Shown in pieces: positions 13,534-57,558 of a stretch of 64,000 nucleotides of DNA (position 1 is the first letter of the stretch; each line of letters starts with the position of its first letter). This DNA comes from an uncultured Nitrospirota bacterium (GTDB lineage: Bacteria; Nitrospirota; Thermodesulfovibrionia; Thermodesulfovibrionales; JdFR-85): contig CAZEYP010000001.1 of NCBI GenBank assembly GCA_964515925.1, forward strand, positions 22,718 to 86,717, read 5' to 3'. A model generated the notes under the pieces. The model was not told where the DNA came from, ran no database searches, and worked only from the letters and a program-made list of their open reading frames with translations. Made by a program: the position numbers and the translations under genes.

Positions 13534-14391
13534 ATGCTAATCATTGGTGAGAAACTCAGTATCATAGCAAAGAGAGTAAGAGAGGCAATGATGAAGCGGG
13601 ATAAGGAGCCGATACAGGAGATTGCCCGCAGGCAGGCTGAGGCAGGCGCTGGTATGATTGATGCAAACATTGGTCCTGCAGAAGACGGTGGCGAGGAGCT
13701 GATGCAGTGGATGGTAACCACCATCCAGGAGGCAGTAGAGTTACCTGTCTGTCTTGATACCACCAACTACGCTGCCATAGAGGCAGGTCTTAAGGTGCAC
13801 AACAACGACTATGGCCTTCCAATGATAAACTCCACCTCCAATGACCCAGAGAGATTTGCCATGCTTGAGCTGGCAGCAAAGTACAACTGCCTGATAATAG
13901 GTCTTACCGTTGGAAAGGGAGGGCTCCCGGCTGATGAAGAGGAGCGTGCTGCAATTGCAGCAGAGATAATGGCAAGGGCAATGGAGTATGGAGTGCCGCT
14001 TGAGAATCTGTATCTTGACCCTCTTGTGCTTCAGATAGCAACCACACAGGAGCAGGCTATAAAGGTTATAAGGGCAGTAGAGATGTTTCAACACCTTAAT
14101 GAGCCACCAATGAAGACAGTGGTGGGGCTCAGTAACATATCAAATGGCTGTCCAAAGCATATAAGGCCAATCTTAAATAAGTATTATTTTCTTATGTTAG
14201 AGCGAGTGGGGCTTACATCGGCTATAGCTGACCCGGTGGAGATGAAAGATGCCCTTGAGGAGAAAGATCTCTTTGAAAAGGTTCTCAATGGTGAGGAGAT
14301 AGAGGATAAAGAAAAGATGACGGTCATGAGAAAAACGATAGATGTGATAGAGGGCAAGACCCTTTATGCCCATTCATATCTGGAGATGTAA
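13534..14391 (+). CDS. acsE: Methyltetrahydrofolate:corrinoid/iron-sulfur protein methyltransferase AcsE
   Basis: 285-aa pterin-binding TIM-barrel protein (MLIIGEKLS.., GAGMIDANIGP) immediately upstream of the corrinoid Fe-S protein genes. Confidence 0.85.
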   Translation: MLIIGEKLSIIAKRVREAMMKRDKEPIQEIARRQAEAGAGMIDANIGPAEDGGEELMQWMVTTIQEAVELPVCLDTTNYAAIEAGLKVHNNDYGLPMINSTSNDPERFAMLELAAKYNCLIIGLTVGKGGLPADEEERAAIAAEIMARAMEYGVPLENLYLDPLVLQIATTQEQAIKVIRAVEMFQHLNEPPMKTVVGLSNISNGCPKHIRPILNKYYFLMLERVGLTSAIADPVEMKDALEEKDLFEKVLNGEEIEDKEKMTVMRKTIDVIEGKTLYAHSYLEM

Positions 14392-14396
14392 AAGAA

Positions 14397-14427
14397 GTGT
14401 TGAGTTTTGAGTTTTGAGTGTTGAATG
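14397..14427 (+). repeat. Heptad array GAGTTTT (left arm of an IVS-like element)
   Basis: gtgttgagttttgagttttgagtgttgaatg is nearly identical to 16973-17003. Confidence 0.85.
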
Positions 14428-14449
14428 AAAATATAAATTATTAGTTATT

Positions 14450-14563
14450 GTGAGTAAAGGTACAGCAAAGGGAGTAAAAGAAAAAAGTTATAAGTTTGCA
14501 CTTAAGATTATCGATTTAGTGAGAGAGTTACAAAAGGAACAAAAGGAGTTTACTCTGTACTAA
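14450..14563 (+). pseudogene. Truncated four-helix-bundle (23S rRNA IVS-protein family) ORF remnant, 37 codons
   Basis: GTG..TAA translates to VSKGTAKGVKEKSYKFALKIIDLVRELQKEQKEFTLY*. This resembles the N-terminal helix of PF05635/TIGR02436 proteins and stops just before the conserved ..QLxRSxxSIGANIxE segment. Confidence 0.55.
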
Positions 14564-14586
14564 ACACTATACATTGGAGGTTTATT

Positions 14587-15525
14587 ATGGCATTTGAGGC
14601 ACCAAAAGAGACATTCTCAGGTATAGTTTTTCCTGTCACCATAGGCAAGGATGTGCAGGAGACCTTTGGTGGAGAAAACACCCTGCCCTTCCATAAATTT
14701 GAGGGTGAGATACCTAACCGTCCATTAATTGCTTTTGAGATACAGGATATCCCACCTGAAGACTGGCCTGAGACGATAAAAAAGGTCTACGAAGGAGTAA
14801 GCGATGACCCTGTAAAGTGGGCTCAGTACTGTCAGGATGAGCTTAAGGCTAAGGCAATCGCCTTAAGACTTGTGGGTACCCATCCTGACCAGAAAGACCT
14901 CTCGGCAGATGATGCGGTGAAGGTGGTAAAGGATGTGCTTTCTGCTGTAAAGGTGCCTCTTGTAATACTTGGCTCTAACCATGTGGAGAAAGACTCAGAG
15001 GTGCTTCCAAAGGTAGCCGAGGCAGCAAAGGGTTACAACTGTATAATAGGTAAGGCGCAGGAGGCAAACTATAAGACCATTGCAGCTGCTGCCATGGCAA
15101 ACGACCATAAACTGATAGCCATGAGTGAGCTTGATATAAACCTTTCAAAACAGCTCAACATCCTGCTTACCCAGATGGGATTCGATAAAGAGAAGATTAT
15201 AACAGACCCCATGTGTTCAGCCCTTGGCTATGGTCTTGAGTATACATACTCTGTGATGGAGAGGATAAGGCTTGCCGCACTTGCTCAGAACGATGAGGTA
15301 ATGCAGCCGCCCATGTTTGGTGATGTGGGTATGTATGTATGGAAGATTAAGGAGACCCAGGCTACAGAGGATACCCTTCCTGAATGGGGTTCCCTTGAGG
15401 AAAGGGCTATACTTTGGGAGGCCATGACTGCTACAAGCCTTATGCTTTCAGGTGCAGAGCTTTTCGTGATGCGACATCCAAAGGCTGTAGAGCTGGTTGA
15501 GAGGTTTGTGGATGAGATGATGTAG
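14587..15525 (+). CDS. acsD: Corrinoid/iron-sulfur protein small subunit AcsD
   Basis: 312-aa TIM-barrel subunit lying between acsE and acsC. GGAGG lies 7 nt upstream of the ATG. Confidence 0.85.
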   Translation: MAFEAPKETFSGIVFPVTIGKDVQETFGGENTLPFHKFEGEIPNRPLIAFEIQDIPPEDWPETIKKVYEGVSDDPVKWAQYCQDELKAKAIALRLVGTHPDQKDLSADDAVKVVKDVLSAVKVPLVILGSNHVEKDSEVLPKVAEAAKGYNCIIGKAQEANYKTIAAAAMANDHKLIAMSELDINLSKQLNILLTQMGFDKEKIITDPMCSALGYGLEYTYSVMERIRLAALAQNDEVMQPPMFGDVGMYVWKIKETQATEDTLPEWGSLEERAILWEAMTATSLMLSGAELFVMRHPKAVELVERFVDEMM

Positions 15526-15580
15526 ATACATCATCATTTACCTACTAAACCAATATACCAATAACCAATTAACTAATTTC
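15526..15580 (+). repeat. G-free CA-rich word array (ACCAATA type) between the acsD stop and the acsC Shine-Dalgarno
   Basis: 55 nt with no G (hand count): ..cctactaaaccaatataccaataaccaattaactaatttc. It is followed by GGAGG at 15581-15585. Confidence 0.85.
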
Positions 15581-15592
15581 GGAGGTTATAAA

Positions 15593-16936
15593 ATGGCATT
15601 AAGCGGCGTAGAGATATTCAAGCTTTTACCAAAGACAAACTGTAAGAAGTGCGGTTTTCCCACCTGTCTTGCCTTTGCAATGAAGCTTGCCCAGAGGCAG
15701 ACCACTCTGGATAAATGTCCTGATGTTTCCGAGGAGGCAAAGAAGATACTTGGTGAGGCTTCGGCACCTCCAGTGAGGCCAATAACCTTTGGCACCGGGG
15801 ATAAGGCTGTCAAGATGGGTGAGGAGACAGTGCTTTTCAGGCATGAAAAGAAGTTTGTAAACCCAAACGCCTTTGTGCTTGAGATAAAGGATACTGAGGA
15901 TGACCCGGTGGTGGATGCAAAGATAAACGATGTCCTGACCTCTGAGATAAATCGAGTTGGTCAGCTTCTCAGGGTTGACGGTATCTGCATAACCAATGAC
16001 TCTGGCGATGCTGGTAAGTTTCAGGCCCTTGCCGAGAAGGTGGCTTCAAAGGCACCGGATGTTGGGGTGGTGGTTAACACGGAAAACCCTGATGCAGCAG
16101 AGGCTGCCATCAAGAGTTTTTCTGGTAAGGGTGCCATACTCCATGGCGTTACTTCTGAAAATGCTGAAAAGATGGTTGAGATAGCCAAGGCACACAAGGC
16201 AACGGTTGGTGTAAAGGCTCAGGGGCTGGAGGCACTTTCAGAGTTGACTGAAAAGGTAAAGGGTCTTGGTGTGGAAGATATTGTTATAGACTCGGGCGCT
16301 CAAAAGGCATCGGAGATTATAGAGCACAACACGCTGATAAGAAGGGCTGCCATAAAGAAGAACTTCAAGCCCCTTGGTTACCCTGTGATCACCTTTGTCC
16401 AGAGAGATGACTCCATGTATGAGGCACTGGTAGCAGGCCTTGGTGTATGTAAGTACTCCTCAATAGTGGTTTTAAGCTCTGCAGAAAAGTGGAAAAACCT
16501 GGCCCTCTTTACCCTGAGGCAGAACATCTACACCGACCCACAGGTGCCAATGCAGGTTGAGCAGAAGATTTACAAGATCGGTGAGCCCACTGCTGACTCA
16601 CCTCTTCTTATCACAACAAACTTCTCTCTCACCTACTTTATCGTATCAGGTGAGATTGAAAATGCTAAAGTGCCTGCCTGGCTTGCTGTTATGGATTGTG
16701 AGGGGCTCAGTGTACTTACAGCCTGGGCAGCAGGTAAGTTTACAGGCTCAAAGATTGCCAATTTTATAAAGGAAAGCGGGATTGAAAATGAAATAAAGCA
16801 TCGTGAGCTTATTATTCCCGGCTATGTTGCAATACTAAGTGGTGCAATAGAGGAAAAGCTTGAAGGATGGAAGGTAACCGTTGGGCCAAGGGAGGCAAAC
16901 GGACTGCCAGCCTTTTTACGCTCAAGAGCAGCATAA
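15593..16936 (+). CDS. acsC: Corrinoid/iron-sulfur protein large subunit AcsC
   Basis: 447 aa with the N-terminal [4Fe-4S] motif CKKCGFPTCLAFAMKL..C and a C-terminal B12-binding domain. Confidence 0.9.
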   Translation: MALSGVEIFKLLPKTNCKKCGFPTCLAFAMKLAQRQTTLDKCPDVSEEAKKILGEASAPPVRPITFGTGDKAVKMGEETVLFRHEKKFVNPNAFVLEIKDTEDDPVVDAKINDVLTSEINRVGQLLRVDGICITNDSGDAGKFQALAEKVASKAPDVGVVVNTENPDAAEAAIKSFSGKGAILHGVTSENAEKMVEIAKAHKATVGVKAQGLEALSELTEKVKGLGVEDIVIDSGAQKASEIIEHNTLIRRAAIKKNFKPLGYPVITFVQRDDSMYEALVAGLGVCKYSSIVVLSSAEKWKNLALFTLRQNIYTDPQVPMQVEQKIYKIGEPTADSPLLITTNFSLTYFIVSGEIENAKVPAWLAVMDCEGLSVLTAWAAGKFTGSKIANFIKESGIENEIKHRELIIPGYVAILSGAIEEKLEGWKVTVGPREANGLPAFLRSRAA

Positions 16937-16938
16937 AA

Positions 16939-17090
16939 CAGGGAGCAGGGCATAGGGGGCAGGGTGTAGTGAGTGTAGAGTTTTGAGTTTTGAGTGTTGA
17001 GTAAAAGCATAACTTAATAATTCAGCACTCAACAATATACATTAAAAACTTTTAATTCCCTGCCCACTACACGCTACACCCTACACCCTA
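16939..17090 (+). repeat. Composite imperfect inverted repeat: G/T-rich arm, short loop, C/A-rich arm
   Basis: The left arm is cagggagcagggcatagggggcagggtgtagtgagtgtagagttttgagttttgagtgttgagt. The right arm is actcaacaatatac...ccctgcccactacacgctacaccctacacccta. It starts 3 nt after the acsC stop. Confidence 0.85.
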
Positions 17091-17242
17091 TATTATTTGT
17101 AATTTAAATCGGTCAATTAAGTAAGTTGACTTTTATAAAGCATTTAGTTTAAAAATTAGGTATAGCCCTTAATCCCGTCTTTAAGAAAAAAAGGCGGGAT
17201 TTAATTATTTTAAAAAAGACAATAAACACAGAGGAGGTTCAG

Positions 17243-19456
17243 ATGTCAAAGATAATAGCCTCAGCAGCGATGCGTGGCTCTCACAAGGTCTTCAAACAGG
17301 CTGAGGAGCTTTTACAGAAGGTCATAGCAGAAAAAGGCGAGGACTATAAGTTTGAGTTTCCTGATACAGCCTACTATCTGCCGATGATTTATGCAATGAC
17401 GGGTTTTGAGGTTAAGACCCTTGCTGACATGAAAGAGGCATTAAGGATGGCGCAGGACCTGCTGCATGATGAGCCTGATGATAAGATCTGGACACCCTAT
17501 CTGGGTGAGGCGCTTGACAGTGGAATGGCAACGCTTTTTGCCGAGGAGATATGGCTTGCATGCCGTTACATCGAAGGGCTTGAGCCAGAGAAGGACCCAG
17601 AGACTGGCTACGAGTACAATGGTTTTATTACTGATACCATTCAGCGTAACCTTGGTATCCAGCTGGTTGATGGAAGGATGCCAGGTTTTGCAGCCATTAT
17701 TGGTGCTGCACCGGACGAGGAGACAGCATTAAAGATAGTCCGTGAGCTTCAGGAGAAAAACATACTGGTCTTCCTCTCAGGTCAGGCAAAGGACAAAAAC
17801 GGAAAACTCACCAGTTGCACCCGCCAGTTGCTTAATCAGGGGATTGAGCTCGGATGGGATGTCTATGTGGTTCCTCTGGGTACCACCACAGAGCATACCC
17901 TTTATGCCCTTGACTGGGCAATCAGGGCATCCCTTATCTTTGGTGGTCATAAACCAGGGGACTTCAAAAACAACCTTAAATACACAAAGGACCGTGTCTT
18001 TGCCTTTGCCCTTGGTCTTGGTGAGATGGATGACATTAAGTGGGCAACAGGTGCAGGTGCCATCAACATGGGATTTCCTGCAGTCTGTGACACAGAGGTT
18101 CCTGTTATCCATCCAACAGGTGTATGTACCTATGAGGAAGTTGAAAGGGAGCTTGACCACGACAAAATCGTGCAGCGTGCCATTGAGGTAAGGGGGCTTA
18201 AGGTCATAGTTGACAAACCCCCCATACCGATTGCCTATGGTTCAGCCTTTGAGGGTGAGCGTATAAGGAAGGACGACACCTTTATTGAGTTTGGTGGAAA
18301 TCGCACACCTGCATTTGAGTGGTGCAGGATGAGGGAGCTTGATGAGATAGAGGATGGAAAGATCACCATTGTTGGTGAGAACTGGAAGGAGCGTTATGAG
18401 CAAGGAGGGCAGATGCCCCTTGGGATACTCGTAGAGGTGGCTGGAAGGAAGATGCAGCCTGACTTTCTGCCTATTATTGAGCGCAGGCTTCATCATAACA
18501 TAAACGAAGGACAGGGAATCTGGCACATGGGCCAGAGGGATATTAACTGGATAAGGATAAGTAAGAACGCAAAGGCCGAGGGATTTTCTCTTGAGGATAT
18601 TGCAAAGATACATCATGCTATGACTCATAAGAGGTTCAGGGCAATCGTTGACAAGGTTCAGGTAACCCTGTTTACTGATGAAGAAGATGTAATTAAGTGG
18701 CGTGAAGAGGCAAGGGCAGAGTGGAAGGCAAGGGATGAGCGTCTTGCAGCACTTACGGACGACAGTGTGGATACCTTCTACAGTTGTCTGCTCTGCCAGA
18801 GCTTTGCGCCAAGCCATGTTTGTGTGATCACACCCGAGAGGCTTGGCCTCTGTGGTGCTTATAACTGGCTTGACTGTAAGGCTGCCTATGAAATTGATCC
18901 CACAGGTGGTAACCAGCCTGTTCCAAAGGGTGAGCTTGTTGATGCAAGGTATGGCAGATATACAGGTGTGGATGAGTATCTCAAGAAGGCATCAGGCGGT
19001 GCAGTAGAGACCCTGAATCTTTACACAATAATGGAAAACCCCATGACCTCCTGTGGTTGCTTTGAATGTATTGTGGCAATTATTCCAGAGGCAAATGGTG
19101 TAATGATAGTTCAGCGTGGACATACAGGTATGACCCCTATTGGAATGAAGTTTTCCACCCTTGCTGGAACCGTTGGTGGTGGAATGCAGACACCCGGGTT
19201 CATGGGGATTGGTGTTAACTTTATAACCAGTAAGAAATTCCTTGCAGGCGACGGAGGCCTGAAGAGGATAGTCTGGATGACCAAGGCACTGAAGGAAAGG
19301 ATAAAGGAGCAGTTCCAGAAGAGGGCAGAAGAGGAAGGTGTGCCTGATCTTCTTGATAAGATTGCCGACGAGACGATCTGTGAGGATTCAGAAAAACTGC
19401 TTGAGTTCCTGACACAGGTAGGACATCCAGCACTTGAGATGGAGCCGATGATATAA
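17243..19456 (+). CDS. acsB: Acetyl-CoA synthase (A-cluster subunit) AcsB
   Basis: 737 aa with A-cluster cysteines in CLLCQSFAPSHVCVITPERLGLCGA and the Cys-Gly-Cys motif MTSCGCFEC. GAGGAGG lies upstream. Confidence 0.92.
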   Translation: MSKIIASAAMRGSHKVFKQAEELLQKVIAEKGEDYKFEFPDTAYYLPMIYAMTGFEVKTLADMKEALRMAQDLLHDEPDDKIWTPYLGEALDSGMATLFAEEIWLACRYIEGLEPEKDPETGYEYNGFITDTIQRNLGIQLVDGRMPGFAAIIGAAPDEETALKIVRELQEKNILVFLSGQAKDKNGKLTSCTRQLLNQGIELGWDVYVVPLGTTTEHTLYALDWAIRASLIFGGHKPGDFKNNLKYTKDRVFAFALGLGEMDDIKWATGAGAINMGFPAVCDTEVPVIHPTGVCTYEEVERELDHDKIVQRAIEVRGLKVIVDKPPIPIAYGSAFEGERIRKDDTFIEFGGNRTPAFEWCRMRELDEIEDGKITIVGENWKERYEQGGQMPLGILVEVAGRKMQPDFLPIIERRLHHNINEGQGIWHMGQRDINWIRISKNAKAEGFSLEDIAKIHHAMTHKRFRAIVDKVQVTLFTDEEDVIKWREEARAEWKARDERLAALTDDSVDTFYSCLLCQSFAPSHVCVITPERLGLCGAYNWLDCKAAYEIDPTGGNQPVPKGELVDARYGRYTGVDEYLKKASGGAVETLNLYTIMENPMTSCGCFECIVAIIPEANGVMIVQRGHTGMTPIGMKFSTLAGTVGGGMQTPGFMGIGVNFITSKKFLAGDGGLKRIVWMTKALKERIKEQFQKRAEEEGVPDLLDKIADETICEDSEKLLEFLTQVGHPALEMEPMI

Positions 19457-19538: not shown

Positions 19539-19551
19539 TTTGGAGGTAAAA

Positions 19552-21543
19552 ATGGCTGAGAAGGTAATAAAAAGTGTAGATAAGGTGGCAGAGAATATTC
19601 TGGAGTGGGCTGAGGCTCACGGCCTTGAAACTGCCTTTGAGCGGTCTGAGAGAATAAAGCCCTGTCCCATTGGTCATAGTGGCGCCTGCTGTAAGATATG
19701 TTTCATGGGGCCATGCAGACTGGTAGGTCAGGATGCAGAGGAAAAGGCAACAGGTGTCTGTGGTGCCACACTTCCAGTGGTATCTGCAAGGAACCTTCTG
19801 AGGATGGTGGCGGCAGGAACGGCAGCTCACAGTGACCATGCCCGTGATATGGCTTATACACTGCTTGAGGCTGCCACCGGTGAGGCACCTGACTTTCAGA
19901 TAAGGGATGTTCAGAAACTCAAAAAGCTGGCCAACATCCTTGAGATACCAACTGAAGATAGAACAAAAGAGGAGATTGCAAAGGATGTAGCCGAGAAACT
20001 CATCTCCGAGTTTGGTCAGCAAAAGGGAGAGCTTTCCTTTATAAAGAGGGCACCAAAAAAACGCCAGGAGATATGGCGCAAGTGGGGAGTGGTGCCAAGA
20101 GGCATTGACCGTGAAGTTGTTGAGGCCATGCACCGGACTAATATGGGAGTGGACCAGGACCCTGACAACCTTCTTATGGCCGCACTTAAGGTCTCACTTG
20201 CTGACGGCTGGGGCGGAAGCATGATAAGCACTGACATCACCGATATACTCTTTGGCACACCAAAGCCCCGTCGGTCACAGGCAAGTATTGGCATAATGAA
20301 GGAGGATGAGGTAAATGTGGTGGTTCATGGTCATGAGCCAACACTGGCTGAGATGATTGTTGAGGTCTCCCAGGAGCCTGAGATTGTTGAGTATGCTAAG
20401 AAGAAGGGCGCAAAGGGCATAAACCTTGTGGGTATGTGTTGTACTGCCAACGAGGTGTTGATGCGTCATGGAATCCCCACGGCAGGTGGTTTCCTCAATC
20501 AGGAGCTTGCCATTATGACCGGTCTGGCTGAAGCCATAATGGTGGATGTCCAGTGCATTATGCCTGCAATTGCTCAGGCTGCAAAGAAGTTTCATACCAA
20601 GGTTGTTACCACCTCACATAAGGGTAAGATGATAGATGCGGTTCACATTCAGTATGATGAGCACAGGGCAAAGGAGATTGCCCGTCAGATACTGAGGCTT
20701 GCTATAGATAATTACGAAAACCGTAAGGCCGAAGGGGCTCATGTTCATGAGACATCACCTGTGATAGCTGGCTTCTCACACGAGTATATCGACTACATGC
20801 AGGGAGGCAGATTCAGGGCATCCTTCAGGCCGCTAAACGATGCAATAATGGCAGGACGTATTCGCGGTGTTGCTGGCATTGTTGGATGTAACAACCCGAG
20901 GATTGCCCCACAGGACAGCATACATGATTATCTTGCTATAGAGTTTATCAAAAACGATGTGCTTGTAGTGACCACAGGTTGTGGTGCTGCTGCATGTGCC
21001 AAGGCAGGATTTATGACGCCTGAGACTGCCCTTGAGATGGCAGGTCCGGGGCTCAGAGAGGTCTGTGAGGCGATTGGTATTCCGCCAATCCTGCACCTTG
21101 GTGCCTGTGTGGACAACTCAAGGATACTTACCGTTGCAACCCAGATGGCAGAGGAAGGTGGGCTTGGTGAGGATATTGCAGACCTGCCTGCAGTGGGAAT
21201 TGCACCTGAGTGGATGAGTGAGAAGGCACTGGCAATTGGCTGTTACTTTGTTGCCTCTGGCGTATATACCATATTTGGTTCAGAGCATCCTGCTGAGGCA
21301 TCCAAAGAGGTGCAGAGGATAATGAGCGAGGTCTGGGAAGAGCGGTTTGGTGGAAAGCTTGAGTTCATCCCTGACCCTGAGGAGATACTGAAGAAGTCCC
21401 TTGAGCACATTGATAAGAAAAGAGATGCACTTAAGCTCCGCAAATACGAGCCAGGCAGATTTCGCGTTGAAAGGAAACTGCTCAGCATGGCTGACAGGCG
21501 TAAACTTGAATCTGCAGCAAGACCCCATGAAGGAGTGGGATAA
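19552..21543 (+). CDS. cooS: Anaerobic carbon monoxide dehydrogenase catalytic subunit CooS/AcsA
   Basis: Starts at ATG 19552, 6 nt after GGAGG. The track's TTG at 19540 overlaps the SD. It has N-terminal cluster cysteines CPIGHSGACCKICFMGPCR and C-cluster region residues HGHEP and GMCCTANE. Confidence 0.92.
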   Translation: MAEKVIKSVDKVAENILEWAEAHGLETAFERSERIKPCPIGHSGACCKICFMGPCRLVGQDAEEKATGVCGATLPVVSARNLLRMVAAGTAAHSDHARDMAYTLLEAATGEAPDFQIRDVQKLKKLANILEIPTEDRTKEEIAKDVAEKLISEFGQQKGELSFIKRAPKKRQEIWRKWGVVPRGIDREVVEAMHRTNMGVDQDPDNLLMAALKVSLADGWGGSMISTDITDILFGTPKPRRSQASIGIMKEDEVNVVVHGHEPTLAEMIVEVSQEPEIVEYAKKKGAKGINLVGMCCTANEVLMRHGIPTAGGFLNQELAIMTGLAEAIMVDVQCIMPAIAQAAKKFHTKVVTTSHKGKMIDAVHIQYDEHRAKEIARQILRLAIDNYENRKAEGAHVHETSPVIAGFSHEYIDYMQGGRFRASFRPLNDAIMAGRIRGVAGIVGCNNPRIAPQDSIHDYLAIEFIKNDVLVVTTGCGAAACAKAGFMTPETALEMAGPGLREVCEAIGIPPILHLGACVDNSRILTVATQMAEEGGLGEDIADLPAVGIAPEWMSEKALAIGCYFVASGVYTIFGSEHPAEASKEVQRIMSEVWEERFGGKLEFIPDPEEILKKSLEHIDKKRDALKLRKYEPGRFRVERKLLSMADRRKLESAARPHEGVG

Positions 21544-22077: not shown

Positions 22078-22080
22078 TAG

Positions 22081-22122
22081 TTTAACTCAACACTAACCAC
22101 TCATAACTAAACACTTAATTTT
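22081..22122 (+). repeat. G-free CA-rich word array 5' of the next SD
   Basis: tttaactcaacactaaccactcataactaaacacttaatttt is 42 nt with no G. It is followed by GAGGAGG. Confidence 0.8.
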
Positions 22123-27595: not shown

Positions 27596-27602
27596 GCTGT
27601 AC

Positions 27603-27669
27603 GGAAGTCTGAAGTCGGAAATCAGAATATGTTATCTGACCTCCGACCTCTGACCTCTGTCCTCTGTCC
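27603..27669 (-). repeat. Inter-tRNA spacer hairpin built from heptads (CTGACCT array versus GAAGTC/GAAATC array)
   Basis: 27603-27626 pairs with 27635-27658. There are 18 Watson-Crick pairs on either strand, plus 4 further G:U pairs only in the minus-strand (tRNA-sense) RNA. Confidence 0.8.
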
Positions 27670-27745
27670 TGGTGAGCCGCCGGGGATTCGAACCCCGCAC
27701 ACCCGCCTTAAAAGGGCGGTGCTCTGCCGACTGAGCTAGCGGCCC
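27670..27745 (-). tRNA. tRNA-Lys (anticodon UUU), CCA encoded
   Basis: The reverse complement is GGGCCGCTAGCTCAGTCGGCAGAGCACCGCCCTTTTAAGGCGGGTGTGCGGGGTTCGAATCCCCGGCGGCTCACCA. The anticodon loop is CTTTTAA. Confidence 0.92.
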
Positions 27746-28608: not shown

Positions 28609-29286
28609 ATGAAGAGAGCCTTACTATCCACGGTGTTCTTAATTGTTCTTACAGCCACATCATATGCAGCGCCATCAATTCTGTTTACCGAGGAAAAACA
28701 CGACTTTGGAGAGGTTAAGCAGGGGGATAAGCTGGAGTATGAATTTCACTTCAAAAACATAGGGGATGAAACACTTATTATCAAAAAGATCACCGCATCC
28801 TGAGGTTGCACTGCAACGATGGTCAGTTCAGACCATCTGGGCTCTGGCGAGGAAGGCACTATAAAGGCCACTGTAGACACAAGAAGAAAAAGGGGAAGGA
28901 TAGTAAAGACCGTACAGGTAAAAACCAATGACCCTCAAAGACCGCTGGTTATCCTGAAACTCATGGCAAATGTTAAAGACCCCTTTCATGCTGCTGCGCA
29001 CGAACCAGATGCCATTTTTAAAACTCCCTGCAGAAGCTGTCATGTGGACAGAGGAGTTGGAAGAACAGGAGCTGCACTATTCAGGGCAGACTGTATGATG
29101 TGTCACAGAAGGGGAAGGGTTGGAAATGACCTGCTTCAGTTGAAAAAGCTCTCCTTTGAAGAGCTGACTCGTTCGATAGAAGAAGGTGTTAAGGGTACCA
29201 TAATGCCAGGGTTTGCATCTCGTGTTGGCGGCCCACTTACAGAGGCGCAGATAAGGTCACTCGTAAGATATATAAAGGGGCACTAA
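28609..29286 (+). CDS. Candidate selenoprotein: secreted DUF1573 domain (Sec at TGA 28801-28803) fused to a c-type cytochrome domain
   Basis: ORFs 28585..28803 and 28819..29286 are in the same frame (offset 234 nt). Readthrough gives ..ETLIIKKITAS-U-GCTATMV..GEEGTIKATVD..VQVKTNDP..LKLMANV, which is the DUF1573 pattern with U at the first Cys of SCGCT. The C-terminal part has CRSCH and CMMCH heme motifs and IMPGF. It has a signal peptide MKRALLSTVFLIVLTATSYA. The start is ATG 28609 after AGGAAAGGGG. Confidence 0.6.
28818..28837 (+). promoter_or_regulatory. SECIS-like hairpin downstream of TGA 28801
   Basis: gatggtc agttca gaccatc has a perfect 7-bp stem, and its apical loop AGUUCA contains GU. 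The loop starts 21 nt after the UGA. A second small hairpin, gttgc act gcaac, lies at 28805-28817. Confidence 0.5.
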
Positions 29287-42092: not shown

Positions 42093-42240
42093 GGTGAATT
42101 GGTATATTGGTGTAGTGGTGTAGTGGTGAAGGGGTGAAACAGGCTTCAGGCTATAGGCTTAAGGTTATGGGCAATGGATTAAGATGCGAATATCAAAAAA
42201 GCCAGATTAATAATTTAGTAATCCAATAATCTAATAACTT
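42093..42240 (+). repeat. Octamer word arrays: G/T-rich arm GTGNANTG, spacer, C/A-rich arm
   Basis: ggtgaattggtatattggtgtagtggtgtagtggtgaaggggtgaaac ... attaataatttagtaatccaataatctaataactt lies between the NuoF-like gene and vapB. Confidence 0.75.
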
Positions 42241-42292
42241 AAAGAATATATTTTTATTGAATCAGGAATACTTTTAAGGCTAAAATAGAAGC

Positions 42293-42514
42293 ATGAAAAC
42301 CACAGTTGATATTCCAGATGATGAGCTCAAAGAATTACTGAAAAACACCAGAGCAAAGACCAAGAAAGAGGCAATTCTTCAGGCAGTAAGGGAGTACAAT
42401 CGCAGGCAGAAACTCAAAAGGCTTGCAGATATGCTGGGTACCTTTGAGGATATAATCACACTGGAAGAACTCCAGAAGTTCAGGATGGACCATAAATGGC
42501 CCGACAGGATGTAG
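42293..42514 (+). CDS. vapB: Type II antitoxin, VapB family
   Basis: 73 aa starting MKTTVDIPDDELKELLKNTRAKTKKEAILQAVREY.. It overlaps the PIN gene by 19 nt. Confidence 0.8.
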   Translation: MKTTVDIPDDELKELLKNTRAKTKKEAILQAVREYNRRQKLKRLADMLGTFEDIITLEELQKFRMDHKWPDRM

Positions 42515-42885
42515 TGCTTGTAGATACTTCCGTATGGATTGAGGCATTGAGGGTAAAAGGTGATGCTGAGACAAAAGAAAGACTCAGGCAGTTGATATTG
42601 GAGGACAGGGCTGTTTGGTGTGACCTGGTGGTGCTTGAACTACTCAGCGGAATGAAGGGTGAGAAGGAGAAAAAGAAGATTAGGGAATACATAGAAGAGA
42701 TAAGGAGTCTTGAGATTAACAGCAAGGTCTGGCAAAGGGCTAAAGGGTTAGTTGTTTCCTGCAGGCAAAAGGGATTTACGGTGCCTGTAACAGACATTAT
42801 AATAGCAGCCTGTGGCCTGAGCCACGGGGTGCCCTTAATGTATAAAGACCGACACTTCGACATCATACTGAGGGAGGTTCTATGA
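42496..42885 (+). CDS. vapC: Type II toxin VapC (PIN-domain ribonuclease)
   Basis: 129 aa with PIN acidic residues in VLVDTSVWIE, ..LVVLELL.., VTDIIIAA and KDRHFD. Its stop TGA (42883-42885) overlaps the fdhA ATG (42882-42884). Confidence 0.85.
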   Translation: MARQDVVLVDTSVWIEALRVKGDAETKERLRQLILEDRAVWCDLVVLELLSGMKGEKEKKKIREYIEEIRSLEINSKVWQRAKGLVVSCRQKGFTVPVTDIIIAACGLSHGVPLMYKDRHFDIILREVL

Positions 42886-45560
42886 TTACACTTATGATAG
42901 ATGGTAAGTATGTTGAGGTTCCTGAGGGGACGACCATACTTCAGGCTGCCCGTGAGGCTGACATCTACATCCCCACCCTCTGCGACGACCCACGACTGGA
43001 GCCCTACGGTGCATGCAGGCTCTGCCTTGTTCAGGTAAAGGGTATGCCAAGGCCTGTTACTGCCTGCACCACACCTGTAAGTGAGGGGATGGAGGTTCAG
43101 ACCAGCAATGAACAGATAGAGCGTATACGTAGAACCATAGTGGAGCTACTTCTAAGCGACCATCCCAATGATTGCATGGTCTGTGAAAAGGCAGGTGACT
43201 GCACCCTTCAGGAGCTTGCCTATTTTTACGACCTCAGAAAGAACCGATTCTGGGGTGAACGCCGTCAGTACACAAAGCGGGATGCCAATCCCTTTATTGA
43301 GAGGGATATGGAAAAGTGTGTGCTCTGTGGTAAGTGTGTGCGGGTCTGTGAGGAGATTCAGGGTGTGGCTGCCATAGACATAGCCTACAGGGGATTCAAG
43401 GCAAAGGTATGCCCTCCCTTTGAAAAGGACCTTAACTGTGAGTTCTGCGGTCAGTGCGTAAGCGTCTGCCCCACAGGTGCACTTATCGGCAAGCAGTCCC
43501 TTGGAAAAGGAAGGCAGAAGGACATAAAGCGAGTTGATACCGTATGTCCCTATTGTGGTTGTGGCTGTAACATAACCCTTCATGTAAGCCGCAATGAGAT
43601 AATCAGGGTGACCTCTGATCCAGACAGCCATAACGAGGGCTGGCTCTGCGTAAAGGGCAGGTTTGGCTTCAGGTTCGTAAACAGCCCTGACCGCCTGAAA
43701 AAACCCCTTATCAGGCGTAACGGTGAGTTTGAGGAGGTCTCCTGGGATGTGGCCCTTGAGTATATAGCAGAGAGGCTTAAAAAGATAAAGAAAGAACATG
43801 GTGCAGATGCCATCGCCGGGCTCAGCTCTGCCCGTTGCACCAATGAAGAAAACTACCTCTTCCAGAAGTTTATGCGTGCCGCAATTGGCACCAACAATGT
43901 TGACCACTGTGCCCGTTACTGACACTCTGCAACGGTGGCCGGTCTGGCCACAGTGTTCGGCTCAGGAGCCATGACCAACTCCATTGCAGAGATTGAGGAC
44001 AACGACCTTCTGTTTGTCATTGGCTCTAACACAAAGGAAAACCATCCCATAGTGGCACTTAGGATGATAAAGGCAGTGCGCAGGGGGGCTAAACTCATCG
44101 TGGCTGACCCAAGGAAGGTTCCCCTTGTCAGGTTTGCCCATCTGTGGCTTCAGCACCGCCCTGGCACGGATGTGGCACTTCTTAACAGCATGATGCATGT
44201 GATTGTAAAAGAGGACCTTATAGACAGGGACTTCATAATAAACATGACCGAGGGCTTTGAAAAGGAGTTCCTTGAAAACCTCGAGCAGTATACCCCTGAG
44301 GTTGGTGAGAAGCTAACTGGTGTTCCAAAGGAAAAGATAGTGGAGGCTGCAAGGCTTTATGGCTCTGCCGAGAGGGCTGGCATTTACTACACCATGGGCA
44401 TTACCCAGCACAGCCACGGCTCTGACAATGTCTTCAGCATTGCAAACCTGGCACTTATGACAGGCAATTTAGGGAAACCCTCCTCAGGTGTTAACCCTCT
44501 CAGGGGGCAGAACAATGTGCAGGGCTCAACCGATATGGGCTGCTCACCAGACAGTTATCCAGGCTACCAGAAGGTCCATCTGCCTGCTGTAAAAGAGAAG
44601 TTTGAAAGGCTCTGGGGTGTAAAGCTCTCTGACAGGCCAGGACTTACTGCCTCGGAGATGCTCTTTGAGGCTGAGGCAGGAAAATTAAGGGCCCTTTACA
44701 TAATGGGTGAAAACCCGGTGCTCAGTGACCCTGATGTGGGGCATACGGTGAGGGCATTAAAATCCCTTGACTTCCTGGTGGTTCAGGACATATTCATGAC
44801 CGAGACAGCAGAGCTTGCCGATGTGGTGCTTCCAGCTGCAAGCTTTGCTGAAAAGGACGGCACCTTTACAAACACAGAGCGAAGGGTTCAGCGGGTAAGA
44901 AAGGCACTAAACCCACCAGGGGATGCCAGAGAGGACTCCTGGATTATCACCGAGTTAAGCAAACGAATGGGCTATGAGATGAACTATGCAAATATATCTG
45001 AGGTGTTCAGGGAGATAGGACAGGCCTGGCCAGCAGTTGCAGGGATAACCTACTCAAGGCTTGAGCACGGAGGGCTCCAGTGGCCCTGTCCAACGGTGGA
45101 CCACCCTGGAACTCCATATCTTTTTAAGGGTGGTTTCCCGAGAGGAAAGGGTAGATTTACCATAGTGAAATACCGCGACCCCATGGAGATGGTAAGTGAT
45201 GAATTCCCCTTTATCCTGACAACAGGCCGTCAGCTGTTTCAGTACCATACAGGCACCATGACAAGAAGGGTTCCACCTATAAACGAGGTTTCCCCTGGAC
45301 CCTATGTGGAGATAAATCCTGATGACGCCCTAACGCTTGGCATTGAGGATGAGCAGAAGGTAAGGGTTACATCAAAACGGGGTAGCATAGAGCTTAATGC
45401 AAGGCTTACTGACAGGGTGGAAAGGGGTCTTGTGTTTATCCCCTTTCACTTTAAAGAGGCAGCAGCCAATGTGCTTACAGACAGCAGGGCACTTGACCCA
45501 CTCTGTAAGATTCCTGAGTTTAAAGTCTGTGCTGTGAATGTGGAGAAGATAGTTAATTGA
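42882..45560 (+). CDS. fdhA: Selenocysteine-containing formate dehydrogenase alpha subunit with a NuoG-like N-terminal Fe-S extension
   Basis: ORFs 42882..43922 and 43935..45560 are one frame joined across TGA 43920-43922. The context ..[30 protein letters not shown] is the conserved FdhA/FdhF Sec/Cys active-site motif. It has N-terminal [2Fe-2S] and 4x[4Fe-4S] motifs plus MopB and MopB_CT domains. Confidence 0.92.
43923..43955 (+). promoter_or_regulatory. SECIS element of fdhA
   Basis: cact ctgcaacg gtggcc ggtct ggccac agtg has a 6-bp upper stem with apical loop GGUCU (like the E. coli fdhF loop) plus a 4-bp lower stem. It starts immediately 3' of the UGA. Confidence 0.75.
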
Positions 45561-45640
45561 ATTAATAGCGTTGGTAGTGTTGATTGGAGTTGGGTTAGGG
45601 TGTTTTTACTACTCCCTACACGCTACACCCTGAACCCTAA
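45561..45640 (+). repeat. Dispersed composite repeat, copy M (GCGTT words, conserved core, CNCCCTA heptads)
   Basis: attaatagcgttggtagtgttgattggagttgggttagggtgtttttactactccctacacgctacaccctgaaccctaa aligns with 57440-57520 and with the reverse complement of 50830-50910. Confidence 0.85.
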
Positions 45641-45690: not shown

Positions 45691-46149
45691 ATGGTTCAGA
45701 TCAATGATTTAAAAGAGCAGATATTATTGAAAGAACTAAACGACGATGAACTGAACATAATTGCTGAGAAGGTTCAGGAGCAAAGCTTTCCAATGGGGAA
45801 GTTAATCTTTATGGAGGGCGAAGAGACCAAGGGTATTTATCTTATAAAAAAGGGTAAGGTAGAGATATCAAAGACCACCCCTGATGGCTGGAAGCAAACA
45901 CTGGCTGTGTTTACTGATGGACATTTCTTTGGTGAGCTTTCGGTTATAGAAGACAAGAAAGAGCACGGTGCAATTGCCACAGCTATTGAGGATACCGATG
46001 CCTTTTTAATTAAAAAGGATGACCTGAAAAGTCTTGAAAAAAGCAACCCTGAGCTGATGTATAAGATTATGAAGACCATTGCCCGTGTGGCAAGCCACAA
46101 TGTGCATACGATGAATGAAAAACTGGTGAAGTTGTTGATTAGTTATTAG
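45691..46149 (+). CDS. Cyclic-nucleotide-binding domain protein (no DNA-binding domain)
   Basis: 152 aa with a CAP_ED beta-roll (GEETKGIYLIKKGKVEI, FFGELSVI). Confidence 0.75.
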   Translation: MVQINDLKEQILLKELNDDELNIIAEKVQEQSFPMGKLIFMEGEETKGIYLIKKGKVEISKTTPDGWKQTLAVFTDGHFFGELSVIEDKKEHGAIATAIEDTDAFLIKKDDLKSLEKSNPELMYKIMKTIARVASHNVHTMNEKLVKLLISY

Positions 46150-46180
46150 TGTAATGGTGTATTGGTGTAGTGGTATAGTG
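46149..46180 (+). repeat. Left (G/T-rich octamer) arm of the stem enclosing the four-helix-bundle ORF
   Basis: gtgtaatggtgtattggtgtagtggtatagtg pairs with 46598-46629 (27 WC plus 2 G:U of 32, hand-aligned). Confidence 0.8.
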
Positions 46181-46219
46181 GTAAATTGATGATAGGATGT
46201 TTTAGATAAATAATATATA

Positions 46220-46591
46220 ATGGGATTGGATGAGCTTGAGATATATGTTCTGGCAAGGCAGTTGAGCAGAGTTTTCTGGAAAGTATATGAAGGAATGGAC
46301 AATAGCATTAAATACAACATCGGGACACAGGCCCTTAGGTCTATTGATTCAATAGGAGCAAACATTGCTGAAGGATACGGTAGATATCATTATCTTGACT
46401 GTGTAAGGTTTTACTATAATGCCAGAGGATCTCTATGGGAAAGTTTACACTGGATAGAACTCCTATACGAAAGGGGTCTTTTAGAAGAACAGGTTTACAC
46501 ACAACTTACAGATGACCTTAACATACTCGTAAAAAAACTTAACAGCTTTATAAATTCAATAAAAAACAAAAAGGAAAACCTTAATAATTAA
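46220..46591 (+). CDS. Four-helix-bundle protein (23S rRNA intervening-sequence protein family, PF05635/TIGR02436 type)
   Basis: 123 aa. ..LRSIDSIGANIAEGYGRYHYLDCVRFYYNARGSLWESLHWIELL.. matches the family signature (SIxxNIAEGxGR ... ARGSxxE). Confidence 0.85.
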   Translation: MGLDELEIYVLARQLSRVFWKVYEGMDNSIKYNIGTQALRSIDSIGANIAEGYGRYHYLDCVRFYYNARGSLWESLHWIELLYERGLLEEQVYTQLTDDLNILVKKLNSFINSIKNKKENLNN

Positions 46592-46678
46592 AAAATACAA
46601 TACACTATTACACCAATACACCAATACACAAATATACCAATATACCAATATATTATTTTACTAATACACCAACATTAA
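46575..46678 (+). repeat. Right (C/A-rich octamer AYACCAAT) arm; a 104-nt stretch with no G
   Basis: ..caatacactattacaccaatacaccaatacacaaatataccaatataccaatatattattttactaatacaccaacattaa runs up to the AGGAGG of fhs. There is no G from 46575 to 46678 (hand count). Confidence 0.85.
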
Positions 46679-46688
46679 GGAGGTCATT

Positions 46689-50793: not shown

Positions 50794-51020
50794 AAATCCG
50801 AAATACGAAATCCTAATTTCTAAACATTACAGGGTGTAGGGTGTAGCGTGTAGGGAGTAACAAAAACACCCCAACCAAACCCCAATCAACGCTACCAACG
50901 CTATTAACGCAAAGAACGCAATTAACTCTATAAGCGCAAGCAACGCAAATAACTCAAAGAACGCAAAGAACCCGATAAACTCGATAAACGCAAAGAACGC
51001 AACTTAACGCAATCAACGCT
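50794..51020 (-). repeat. Large composite repeat inside the mla operon (sense = minus): about 14 nonamers NNNNGCGTT, conserved core, CNCCCTA heptads, NNGATTT heptads
   Basis: Reverse-complement reading gives gattgcgtt aagttgcgtt ctttgcgtt tatcgagtt ... aatagcgtt ggtagcgtt gattggggtttggttggggtgtttttgttactccctacacgctacaccctacaccctg ... agaaatt aggattt cgtattt cggattt. The core 50830-50910 matches 57440-57520 at 75 of 81 positions, in inverted orientation. Confidence 0.9.
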
Positions 51021-57194: not shown

Positions 57195-57361
57195 AGGATG
57201 ATGGTTTTCTGTAAGGGAGTGGAAAACTGGTTTTACTGTCTGAGGTGCCCCTATCTTTGTAGTAGCCAGTGTCCGATTGAGAGTAATGACCCTTTGCGTC
57301 TTTTGTCGCTTTACATAAAAGATGAGGCAACAACGGGGGAGGACAAGGGAAAGTTATTGCG

Positions 57362-57558
57362 TTGATTGCGTTAATAGCGTTTATTGCGTTCTTTGCGTTA
57401 ATCGGGATGATTGCGTTTATTGGGTTAATAGTGTTAATTGCGTTAATAGCGTTGGTAGCGTTGATTAGGGTTTGGATGGGGTGTTTTTGTTGCTCCCTAC
57501 TCCCTACTCCCTACACCCTGTCTTTTTTACTCCCTACACGCTACCCCCTACACCCTAA
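57362..57558 (+). repeat. Large composite repeat in the nrdJ leader: about 12 nonamers NNNNGCGTT, conserved core, CTCCCTA/CACCCTA heptads
   Basis: The sequence is gattgcgtt aatagcgtt tattgcgtt ctttgcgtt ... aatagcgtt ggtagcgtt gattagggtttggatggggtgtttttgttgctccctactccctactccctacaccctg ... ctccctacacgctaccccctacacccta. It ends 13 nt before the GGAGG of nrdJ. Confidence 0.9.

What the first reader, a model, noticed from the sequence alone, without database searches (positions are those of the whole stretch)
14397..17043. Apparent decay series of the same element: truncated ORF copy (14397-14576) and empty copy (16973-17043)
**Seen in the sequence.**
- The left arms are nearly identical. 14397 reads gtgtTgagttttgagttttgagtgttgaAtG and 16973 reads gtgtAgagttttgagttttgagtgttgaGtA.
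- The right ends also match. 14561 reads aaacaCtatacatt and 17029 reads caacaAtatacatt.
- In the acsE-acsD spacer the arms enclose a 37-codon ORF (14450-14563). It translates to ..SYKFALKIIDLVRELQKEQKEFTLY*.
- That looks like the first helix of a four-helix-bundle/IVS protein and stops just before the conserved SIGANI segment.
- In the acsC-acsB spacer the arms enclose only about 25 nt.

**Inference.** Together with the intact copy at 46220, this gives intact, truncated and ORF-less states of one cassette type inside a single pathway cluster. The arms, not the ORF, appear to be the retained part.
Basis: partly seen in the sequence, partly recalled or inferred. Interest (0 to 1): 0.55.

Follow-up and report, generated by a model that had tools for sequence, protein, structure and literature searches.

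The report
Decayed IVS-like hairpin gene cassettes
Two spacers of a Wood-Ljungdahl operon hold a broken copy and an empty copy of a small hairpin-flanked gene cassette, the kind known from inserts in ribosomal RNA genes; here it sits between protein genes, and its short-repeat arms match its protein subfamily across phyla.

Summary
The two left arms share an exact 23-mer, with none expected by chance.

The 37-codon ORF at 14450-14563 is a 3'-truncated PF05635/TIGR02436 four-helix-bundle (4HB) gene. HMMs alone do not show this. Three related Nitrospirota lineages carry an intact 129-131 aa ORF in the same acsE-acsD spacer. One is 97% identical to the fragment. The window has lost about 275 nt, which includes helices 2-4 and most of the right arm.

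The acsC-acsB copy shares the arm, 15/23 leader bases and 15/17 right-end bases. It sits inside the loop of a second hairpin.

The intact ORF at 46220 is the same kind of element but a different family. It is 20-30% identical in protein and has 8-mer GGTGTAGT arms.

Every one of about 18 4HB genes read in eight phyla is flanked by tandem short repeats, mostly heptamers and usually inverted. The arm motif follows the protein subfamily. Cassette divergence disagrees with flank divergence, which points to recent transfer.

These are IVS-like selfish cassettes located in mRNA spacers. RNase III processing and the mobility mechanism are inferred, not shown.

The parts
14397..14427 (+). Left arm of the acsE-acsD cassette: about 4 tandem heptamers (GAGTTTT/GAGTGTT), starting 6 nt after the acsE stop codon.
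   Evidence: Identical to the arm of L081 and near-identical to that of L003.
14428..14449 (+). AT-rich leader between the arm and the ORF. It has no Shine-Dalgarno sequence, although host genes here carry GGAGG.
   Evidence: Aligns to the L003 leader.
14450..14563 (+). 3'-truncated PF05635/TIGR02436 four-helix-bundle gene, helix 1 only. The deletion junction lies between 14558 and 14559, and the TAA stop comes from the right-arm remnant.
   Evidence: tblastn gives 97% over 36 aa to the L003 ORF, E=1e-17. The alignment shows an approximately 275-nt gap. TIGR02436 E=0.051 against model positions 1-27, below cut-off. Pfam gives no family hit.
14559..14575 (+). Remnant of the right arm (ACTAAACACTATACATT). 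It is followed by the acsD RBS GGAGG at 14577-14581.
   Evidence: The intact right arms in L003, L081 and L084 are 35-50 nt of AACACTC/AAAACTC repeats.
16938..16977 (+). Outer left arm of the acsC-acsB hairpin, made of AGGGNNN/TAGGGTG-type heptamers, starting right after the acsC stop codon.
   Evidence: (D15).
16973..17003 (+). Inner left arm with GAGTTTT/GAGTGTT heptamers. 28/31 identical to 14397-14427, including an exact 23-mer.
17004..17025 (+). Inner loop. Its first bases resemble the cassette leader: 15/23 identical, counted from 17001.
   Evidence: p=0.002. No significant similarity to the ORF interior.
17026..17043 (+). Inner right arm or end (CACTCAACAATATACATT). It pairs with GAGTGTTGAGT.
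17055..17098 (+). Outer right arm with CTACACC/CACCCTA heptamers, complementary to 16938-16977. The whole 16934-17105 stretch folds as one nested hairpin.
   Evidence: MFE -54.2 kcal/mol, z=-5.2, 0/200 shuffles as stable. TRF array at 17067-17090.
22078..22115 (+). Right-arm-type array of the same family (AACTCAACACTAACCACTCATAACTAAACACT) with no left partner, in front of the nuoF-like gene. It is conserved in L001 and L003.
   Evidence: (I11).
46144..46672 (+). Intact cassette of a different family. Left arm 46144-46188 (GGTGTAGT 8-mers), 4HB ORF 46220-46591, right arm 46598-46672 (CAATACAC 8-mers).
   Evidence: Pfam PF05635 E=5.9e-24. Inverted repeat I8 is 45 nt and 78% complementary. The arms pair in the MFE fold, z=-2.4. 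Flank duplex z=-5.0.

Best explanation
**Shown**
- Both features are decayed members of one family of small cassettes. A complete cassette is a left arm of tandem GAGTKTT heptamers, a short leader, a roughly 125-aa PF05635 four-helix-bundle gene, and a right arm of the complementary heptamers.
- The cassette is inserted between the stop codon of one operon gene and the ribosome-binding site of the next.
- The acsE-acsD copy lost about 275 nt in one deletion, which removed helices 2-4 and most of the right arm. It is a dead remnant.
- The acsC-acsB copy keeps the arm, part of the leader and the right end, but has no ORF. It lies in the loop of a second hairpin built from a different heptamer.

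**Inferred**
- The cassettes behave like the ORF-bearing intervening sequences (IVS) of 23S rRNA. They are transcribed with the host operon, and the arms pair into a long stem that encloses the ORF. RNase III probably cuts that stem.
- They are selfish and turn over fast. They are lost by deletion, and they are copied or replaced between loci and between lineages. The most likely route is recombination through the conserved arms, because no transposase or nuclease is present.
- Each protein subfamily keeps its own arm motif across phyla. This suggests that the pentameric 4HB protein recognises its own repeat arms.
For: **Identity of the fragment**
- An intact 129-131 aa ORF lies in the same spacer in three lineages, each seen in independent assemblies. 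The family is confirmed by PF05635 assignment and PDB 2rld at 4.7e-29. The deletion is mapped.
- The protein is under purifying selection: dN/dS about 0.1 for L081 against L084.

**Stem formation**
- The arms pair in L003 (z=-3.6), at 46220 and in the acsC-acsB copy (z=-5.2).
- Seven of 13 cassettes have flank duplexes with z<=-3, against 0 of 24 host genes.

**Turnover and mobility**
- L003 against L081 is 92.7% identical in the cassette and 77.8% in the flanks (p=7e-15). Window against L081 is 93.8% against 78.1%. The L084 cassette is more diverged than its flanks, at 71% against 82%.
- Close relatives show a presence/absence difference.
- Different hairpin types sit at the same point in orthologous spacers.
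- L003 has four empty hairpins and one filled hairpin of one type.

**Cognate arms**
- GAGTKTT flanks 6 of 8 subfamily-A cassettes, from Nitrospirota, a gammaproteobacterial symbiont, Balneolaceae and a GC-rich metagenome contig, and 0 of 5 subfamily-B cassettes. KGTRTAKT flanks 5 of 5 subfamily-B cassettes (Nitrospirota, Arcobacter, Nautilia, Deltaproteobacteria) and 0 of 9 others.
- Six further finished plasmids from cyanobacteria, Treponema and Chlorohelix all show tandem heptamer arms, inverted in at least five.

**Precedent**
- The Coxiella 23S IVS has an S23p ORF, tandem heptamers in the stem, RNase III cleavage at the first repeat, copy-number variation and a 176-bp ORF deletion (PMC4990558).
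Against: - No RNA data exist, so transcription, stem formation in vivo and RNase III cleavage are all untested.
- No target-site duplication and no recombinase were found, so the mobility mechanism is unknown.
- Six of 13 cassettes do not beat composition-preserving shuffles in the flank-duplex test.
- Two of six plasmid cassettes are antisense to their neighbours, so co-transcription is not universal.
- GAGTKTT arrays without any 4HB gene are the great majority (78 of 80 loci). The arrays may therefore have a life of their own.
- The acsC-acsB loop has no significant similarity to the ORF interior. Its descent from an ORF-bearing copy rests on about 70 nt.
- Two subfamily-A cassettes (L092, L093) carry other heptamers.
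Confidence: 0.7

Rival explanations
1. The arms are ordinary heptameric simple-sequence repeats made by polymerase slippage in intergenic DNA. The 4HB genes merely sit in such spacers. The acsC-acsB element would then be an independent repeat hairpin, not a derivative of a cassette.
For: - Heptameric SSRs are known to be over-represented in bacterial intergenic regions and to lie next to ORF ends (PMC4692102).
- The same 23-mer class occurs in more than 120 unrelated metagenome contigs, nearly all without a 4HB gene.
- The window has 24 arrays of period 7-9.
- The acsC-acsB loop does not match the ORF interior.
Against: - Slippage cannot change repeat type, yet orthologous spacers of close relatives carry different types inserted at the same point.
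- Slippage does not explain why the two sides are complementary.
- It does not explain why the arm motif follows the protein subfamily across phyla.
- It does not explain the leader and right-end identity between the two window copies.
- Every one of about 18 4HB genes examined has such arms.
Confidence: 0.12
2. The repeat hairpins are host regulatory RNA elements that set processing, stability or translation of the operon's cistrons. They are kept by selection on the host, and the 4HB ORF is an occasional passenger of no importance.
For: - By inspection of the window, the G/T-rich arrays follow stop codons and the A/C-rich arrays precede ribosome-binding sites on the sense strand. This also holds for minus-strand genes and the tRNA cluster.
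- The hairpin 16934-17105 is very stable.
- The authors of the Coxiella study concluded that the RNA part matters more than the protein.
Against: - Close relatives with the same operon have no element (L002, L006, L013) or a different one, so no particular hairpin is required.
- The ORF is under purifying selection.
- The ORF travels with its arms across phyla.
- The truncated acsE-acsD copy has lost its stem without replacement.
Confidence: 0.15
3. The 37-codon ORF is a functional small protein in its own right.
For: It is an intact reading frame with a GTG start.
Against: - It is found only in the window; relatives carry the full-length gene.
- Its stop codon was created by the deletion junction.
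- It has no Shine-Dalgarno sequence in an organism whose genes carry GGAGG.
- It holds one helix of a four-helix bundle.
Confidence: 0.02

Closest known systems
ORF-bearing intervening sequences (IVS) of 23S rRNA (Leptospira, Coxiella burnetii, Brucella; S23p/PF05635 ORF)
   Same: - Same protein family in the loop.
- Inverted repeats form a stem around the ORF.
- In Coxiella the stem contains tandem heptamers with copy-number variation, and the ORF has a poor Shine-Dalgarno sequence.
- The ORF is prone to internal deletion: 176 bp in one Coxiella strain, about 275 nt here.
- Distribution among close relatives is sporadic (PMC4990558).
   Different: - Here the host sequence is the spacer between protein-coding genes of operons (acsE-acsD, acsC-acsB, upstream of fhs), not helix 25 or 45 of 23S rRNA.
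- The ORF is under purifying selection in intact copies.
- RNase III excision has not been tested.
Heptameric intergenic simple-sequence repeats / STRR (Calothrix, Nostoc GGGGAYT, Xanthomonas GGGAATC)
   Same: - Tandem 7-mers confined to intergenic DNA, close to ORF ends and variable in length.
- Some occur as inverted pairs able to form stem-loops (PMC4692102).
- The Planktothrix cassette arms (AATCCCC/GGGATTT) are of the Nostoc GGGGATT type.
   Different: The papers held here make no link to PF05635 genes. In this work the repeats come as complementary arms around a gene, or around its remnant.
MITE-like non-autonomous derivatives of mobile elements
   Same: Short ORF-less copies keep the ends of a longer ORF-bearing element and outnumber it (L003 has 4 empty to 1 filled). 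Copies can nest inside one another (16973-17043 inside 16938-17098).
   Different: There is no transposase and no target-site duplication was seen. The 'terminal inverted repeats' are arrays of short tandem repeats rather than unique sequences.
Avd, the accessory protein of diversity-generating retroelements
   Same: Avd falls in the same Pfam family as a pentameric four-helix bundle. It binds nucleic acid and the reverse transcriptase. This comes from my own knowledge and the hit list; I did not read the papers.
   Different: No reverse transcriptase and no template/variable repeat lie next to any cassette read here.
REP/BIME extragenic palindromes
   Same: Intergenic, transcribed hairpins within operons, present in many copies.
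   Different: REPs are unique palindromes mobilised by a RAYT transposase. These arms are tandem heptamers, and no RAYT was seen.

Membership tests
PF05635 / TIGR02436 four-helix-bundle (23S rRNA IVS) protein | Significant match to the family HMM. | tested here: inconclusive
   - 37-aa peptide: no PF05635 hit in Pfam. TIGR02436 gives E=0.051 and 13.8 bits against a cut-off of 24, in the correct register at model positions 1-27.
- Full-length orthologue L003 5257-5646: PF05635 precomputed, PDB 2rld at 4.7e-29.
- The fragment is 97% identical to that orthologue's N-terminus.
PF05635 / TIGR02436 four-helix-bundle (23S rRNA IVS) protein | Complete protein of about 110-130 aa with four helices and the SIGANI(A/V)E motif in helix 2. 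| tested here: not met
   The window ORF ends 10 residues before the motif. L003 reads ...EFILSGQLLRSGTSIGANIVEA, while the window reads ...EFTLY*. It is a pseudogene fragment of a member, not a member.
23S rRNA intervening sequence (IVS) element | Inserted in helix 25 or 45 of a 23S rRNA gene. | tested here: not met
   The elements lie between acsE and acsD, between acsC and acsB, and upstream of fhs. Rfam finds only three tRNAs in the window.
23S rRNA intervening sequence (IVS) element | Inverted repeats form a stem that encloses the ORF or loop. | tested here: met
   - L003 cassette z=-3.6.
- 46135-46690: the arms pair.
- 16934-17105 z=-5.2.
- Not met by the truncated 14389-14590, z=+0.98.
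23S rRNA intervening sequence (IVS) element | Excised from the transcript by RNase III. | not testable with these tools
Heptameric intergenic SSR / STRR | Tandem 7-nt units, at least about 3 copies, restricted to intergenic DNA. | tested here: met
   TRF finds period 7 with 4.1 copies at 14396-14424 and 4.7 copies at 16970-17002. All such arrays in the window lie in spacers.
Transposon-derived MITE | Target-site duplication and a cognate transposase. | tested here: not met
   Comparing filled and empty sites (L084 against L002; window and L003 against L002 and L084) shows no duplication. No transposase lies next to any cassette.
Diversity-generating retroelement (Avd component) | Adjacent reverse transcriptase with template and variable repeats. 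| tested here: not met
   The neighbours are acs, fhs, nuo, cys, two-component, sugar-nucleotide, restriction-modification (helicase, N-6 DNA methylase) and cas genes. None is a reverse transcriptase.

The most novel reading that the evidence does not exclude
PF05635 four-helix-bundle proteins may be the trans-acting partners of the tandem heptamer (7-9 nt) repeat arrays that litter intergenic regions of many bacteria. Each protein subfamily would recognise its own repeat motif as RNA or DNA. It would promote the copying, maintenance or processing both of its own cassette and of ORF-less arrays with the same motif. This would explain the long-noted but unexplained excess of heptameric simple-sequence repeats (the STRR of cyanobacteria, the Xanthomonas and Nostoc repeats). 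It would also give the IVS proteins a function.
Probability: 0.3. Interest if true: 0.85.

Novelty: new variant of a known kind. Interest (0 to 1): 0.62.

Why it matters
The function of the 23S rRNA IVS protein family has been unknown since 1993. The excess of heptamer repeats between bacterial genes has had no explanation beyond polymerase slippage.

The window and its relatives show the two together outside rRNA:
- The gene always sits between complementary short-repeat arms.
- The arm motif tracks the protein subfamily from Nitrospirota to Campylobacterota and Gammaproteobacteria.
- Cassettes move or are replaced independently of their flanks.
- Broken and empty copies accumulate in the spacers of a core metabolic operon.

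This turns an annotation curiosity into testable questions. Does the protein bind its own repeats? Are the stems cut by RNase III? Does the number of arrays of a motif in a genome depend on having the matching gene?

For the narrow finding itself, the value is a clean and well-documented pseudogene case.

Tried and rejected
- **Family HMMs on the 37-aa peptide alone.** Pfam gave nothing for the family and TIGR02436 was sub-threshold. This route would have wrongly refuted the finding.
- **Direct comparison of the peptide with the 46220 protein.** No alignment, so the 'same element' reading was rejected.
- **Remnants of the ORF in the acsC-acsB loop.** Local alignment was not better than shuffles (p=0.12-0.20).
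- **4HB genes next to GAGTKTT arrays in a metagenome scan.** I expected them, but only 2 of 80 loci had one. This rejects the idea that every array is a fresh cassette.
- **Long acsC-acsB spacers in L054, L077, L078 and L080.** These hold a Fur-family regulator gene, not a cassette.
- **Rfam.** No known RNA family in the spacers.
- **Target-site duplications at filled and empty sites.** None seen.
- **Flank-duplex energies.** These support arm pairing for only 7 of 13 cassettes when compared with composition-preserving shuffles. This control is conservative because G/U-rich and A/C-rich arms pair even when shuffled.
- **Assembly chimeras as the cause of high cassette identity.** Judged unlikely, because each arrangement recurs in independent assemblies of different samples.
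- **Literature searches.** No description of these cassettes outside rRNA was found. The library is not complete.
Full report
**1. Setting**

The window comes from a Nitrospirota (Thermodesulfovibrionia-type) genome. The closest AcsD proteins, at 94-79% identity, are all from such MAGs. The region 11-25 kb is a Wood-Ljungdahl cluster:
- acsE-like methyltransferase, 13534-14391
- acsD, 14587-15525
- acsC, 15593-16936
- acsB, 17243-19456
- cooS, 19540-21543

Formate-tetrahydrofolate ligase (fhs) lies at 46689-48452.

Almost every spacer in the window holds tandem arrays of 7-9-nt units from a few families:
- GATTTYA
- GAGTKTT
- GGTGTAGT and its complement CCAATACA
- TAGGGTG and its complement CACCCTA
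- ATTGCGTTA and its complement
- CTCTGTG

TRF gives 24 merged arrays in 64 kb.

**2. The observation**

It holds.
- The two left arms share an exact 23-mer, with no match in 100 shuffles even at 3 mismatches.
- The right-end 13-mer occurs only at the two sites.
- The ORF 14450-14563 reads as quoted.
- Two quoted coordinates are one base low.

**3. What the 37-codon ORF is**

Pfam gives no family hit. TIGR02436 gives only E=0.051, although in the right register at model positions 1-27.

Comparative evidence settles it.
- In L003 (AcsD 91% identical), the same acsE-acsD spacer is 470 nt and holds a 129-aa ORF. Its first 36 residues are 97% identical to the peptide.
- That ORF is a PF05635 protein with thousands of homologues. 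It matches the pentameric PDB entries 2rld (4.7e-29) and 2gsc.
- Versions 91% and 72% identical lie at the same position in two further lineages. Each was recovered in independent assemblies.
- The window aligns to L003 at about 96% from the acsE stop codon to ...TCTGT (14558). About 275 nt are then missing, and the alignment resumes in the last 17 nt of the right arm.
- The TAA stop is made by the junction.
- The deletion also took most of the right arm. The spacer no longer folds better than shuffles (z=+0.98), whereas in L003 the arms close a stem around the whole ORF (z=-3.6).

**4. The acsC-acsB copy**

The stretch 16934-17105 folds into one long nested hairpin of -54.2 kcal/mol, with z=-5.2. 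An outer stem of TAGGGTG/CACCCTA heptamers encloses the 71-nt GAGTKTT element.

Compared with the acsE-acsD copy, that element matches in three places:
- 28 of 31 arm bases
- 15 of 23 bases of the leader after the arm (p=0.002)
- 15 of 17 bases at the right end

The loop has no significant match to the ORF interior. I read it as an internally deleted, ORF-less derivative of the same cassette family, sitting in the loop of another hairpin. An independent origin is not excluded.

In relatives the same point, between the acsC stop codon and TATTATT..., is either empty (L002, L084) or holds a different hairpin (L003).

**5. The copy at 46220**

It is an intact PF05635 gene (E=5.9e-24). Arms of 45 nt and 78% complementarity, built from 8-mers, flank it (I8).
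- Its protein is 30% identical to the L003 protein over 80 aa. The identity is 18-28% in a multiple alignment.
- It has no detectable similarity to the 37-aa peptide.

It is the same kind of element but a different family. The three window loci are therefore not one decay series. The true intact state of the truncated copy is found in relatives.

**6. Decay and turnover**

- *Loss.* L002 and L084 are 93-98% identical in the flanks, yet L084 has the 485-nt cassette and L002 a 33-nt spacer. L060 has a 5'-truncated 4HB gene fused to the acsC stop codon, with a right arm of TTACGYR heptamers. L001, the closest relative, has an empty GGTGTAGT/CCAATATA hairpin in acsE-acsD.
- *Selection on intact copies.* dN/dS is about 0.1 between L081 and L084.
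- *Discordant divergence.*

| Pair | Cassette identity | Flank identity | p |
|---|---|---|---|
| L003 vs L081 | 92.7% | 77.8% | 7e-15 |
| window vs L081 | 93.8% | 78.1% | 5e-8 |
| L003 vs L084 | 71% | 82% | 7e-7 |

  Synonymous difference in the L003-L081 cassette is 0.11, against 0.67-0.78 in acsE and acsD. The L084 cassette is more diverged than its flanks, as expected for vertical descent of a less constrained sequence. The change in identity occurs at the acsE stop codon and at the acsD ribosome-binding site. The cassette has therefore been transferred or converted between lineages without its flanks.
- *Spread of short forms.* L003 carries GAGTGTT hairpins in five spacers of this cluster, and only one has the ORF.

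**7. Generality**

I read the flanks of about 18 independent 4HB genes:

| Group | Source loci |
|---|---|
| Nitrospirota | acsE-acsD cassette, 46220 cassette, L060 |
| Gammaproteobacterial symbiont | L090 |
| Tannerellaceae | L092 |
| Pyrinomonadaceae | L093 |
| Balneolaceae | L095 |
| Metagenome contigs | L125, L167 |
| Arcobacter, Nautilia, a deltaproteobacterium | L219, L221, L222 |
| Finished plasmids: Nostoc, Anabaena, Euhalothece, Planktothrix, Treponema, Chlorohelix | L226-L231 |

- All have tandem short repeats, mostly heptamers, on at least one side. Most have complementary arrays on both sides.
- The motif follows the protein subfamily. GAGTKTT is found with 6 of 8 subfamily-A genes (4 of 6 independent) and with no subfamily-B gene. 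KGTRTAKT is found with all 5 subfamily-B genes and with none of 9 others.
- At 55-60% amino-acid identity, neutral flanks would be randomised. The arm sequence is therefore conserved together with its gene.
Only 2 of the 80 loci read had a 4HB gene. Arrays far outnumber genes.

**8. How it probably works**

The closest precedent is the ORF-bearing IVS of 23S rRNA. In Coxiella the S23p ORF sits in the loop of a stem made of inverted repeats that contain tandem GACAGAT heptamers of variable number. RNase III cuts at the first repeat, the ORF has a poor Shine-Dalgarno sequence, and one strain has a 176-bp deletion in the ORF (PMC4990558).

By analogy, these cassettes would be transcribed with the operon. 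Thirteen of 17 are co-directional with both neighbours and two are antisense. The arms would pair, and RNase III would cut the stem.

For mobility, I favour recombination through the conserved arms. They offer 25-45 nt of near-identity between genomes whose flanks are only 78% identical. This would explain the sharp boundaries and the filling or emptying of hairpins of the same type. There is no recombinase and no target-site duplication. All of this paragraph is inference.

By inspection of the window, G/T-rich arrays follow stop codons and A/C-rich arrays precede ribosome-binding sites on the sense strand. This also holds for minus-strand genes and the tRNA cluster. Two explanations fit: relics of co-oriented cassettes, or a function at the RNA level.

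**9. Known or new**

Heptameric repeats are known to be over-represented in intergenic DNA. They have been studied in Xanthomonas and Nostoc without any link to this gene family (PMC4692102). Five literature searches found no description of 4HB cassettes in mRNA spacers or of subfamily-specific arms. The library is incomplete.

I file the window features as decayed members of a new variant of a known kind, namely IVS-type elements outside rRNA.

**10. Verdict**

- The identity of both features is secure. The truncated gene has very high confidence, and the empty copy moderate to high confidence.
- The mechanism is inferred.
- The wider pattern that came out of the check is the more interesting result.

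Noticed in passing
window 28612-29286 (+): One reading frame runs from ATG 28609 (the first codon translated, 28612, is Lys) through an in-frame TGA into the ORF called at 28819-29286. The TGA sits in ...IKKITAS*GCTAT..., where I recall DUF1573-type proteins having SCGCT (from memory, not tested). Two CxxCH haem motifs follow. This is a possible selenocysteine protein. No SECIS search was done.
   Followed up: partly
window 17110-17215; also the acsC-acsB spacers of L001, L002, L003 and L084: Upstream of acsB and downstream of the hairpin insert lies a conserved promoter-like TTGACT...TAAAAT. It is followed by a conserved stem-loop (CCCGTCTT...AAGGCGGG) and a T-rich run. This could be an internal promoter plus an attenuator or terminator-like element. 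Rfam has no match.
   Followed up: no
window 50821-50993 and 57357-57529: A 173-nt inverted repeat, 83% complementary, is built from ATTGCGTTA 9-mers plus CTCCCTA/TAGGGTG heptamers. It brackets a 6.3-kb segment of genes. A shorter copy lies at 45552-45638. This is a composite repeat element, and possibly a substrate for inversion.
   Followed up: no
window 27602-27670 (between tRNA genes on the minus strand): A heptamer hairpin (CGGAAGT / TCTGACC) lies between two tRNA genes. Its motif is the same type as the GTCGGAG/CTCCGAC arms around the 4HB gene on Nostoc punctiforme plasmid pNPUN01 (L226).
   Followed up: partly
L060 9233-9626: A 5'-truncated 4HB gene starts directly after the acsC stop codon. 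It has only a right arm, made of TTACGYR heptamers. This is a second and independent decay state in the acsC-acsB spacer of a distant relative.
   Followed up: yes
L054, L077, L078, L080 (acsC-acsB spacers of 487-690 nt): These more distant relatives carry a Fur/PerR-family regulator gene between acsC and acsB.
   Followed up: partly
L227 (Anabaena cylindrica pANACY.01); L229, L231, L228: 4HB cassettes also sit inside defence loci. One lies between cas2 and cas1 on the opposite strand. Others lie between helicase and N-6 DNA methylase genes in Planktothrix and Chlorohelix, and near such a methylase gene in Euhalothece.
   Followed up: no
window 42093-42495: A GGTGTAGT left-arm array with no right partner is followed by GGCTTMA heptamers. 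A VapB-like ORF (from 42294) and a PIN-domain VapC gene (42496-42885) come next.
   Followed up: no
L001 3541-3640: The closest relative has a run of N exactly where the window has the nested hairpin in acsC-acsB. It is an assembly gap or masked stretch at the repeat, so the orthologous state could not be read.
   Followed up: no
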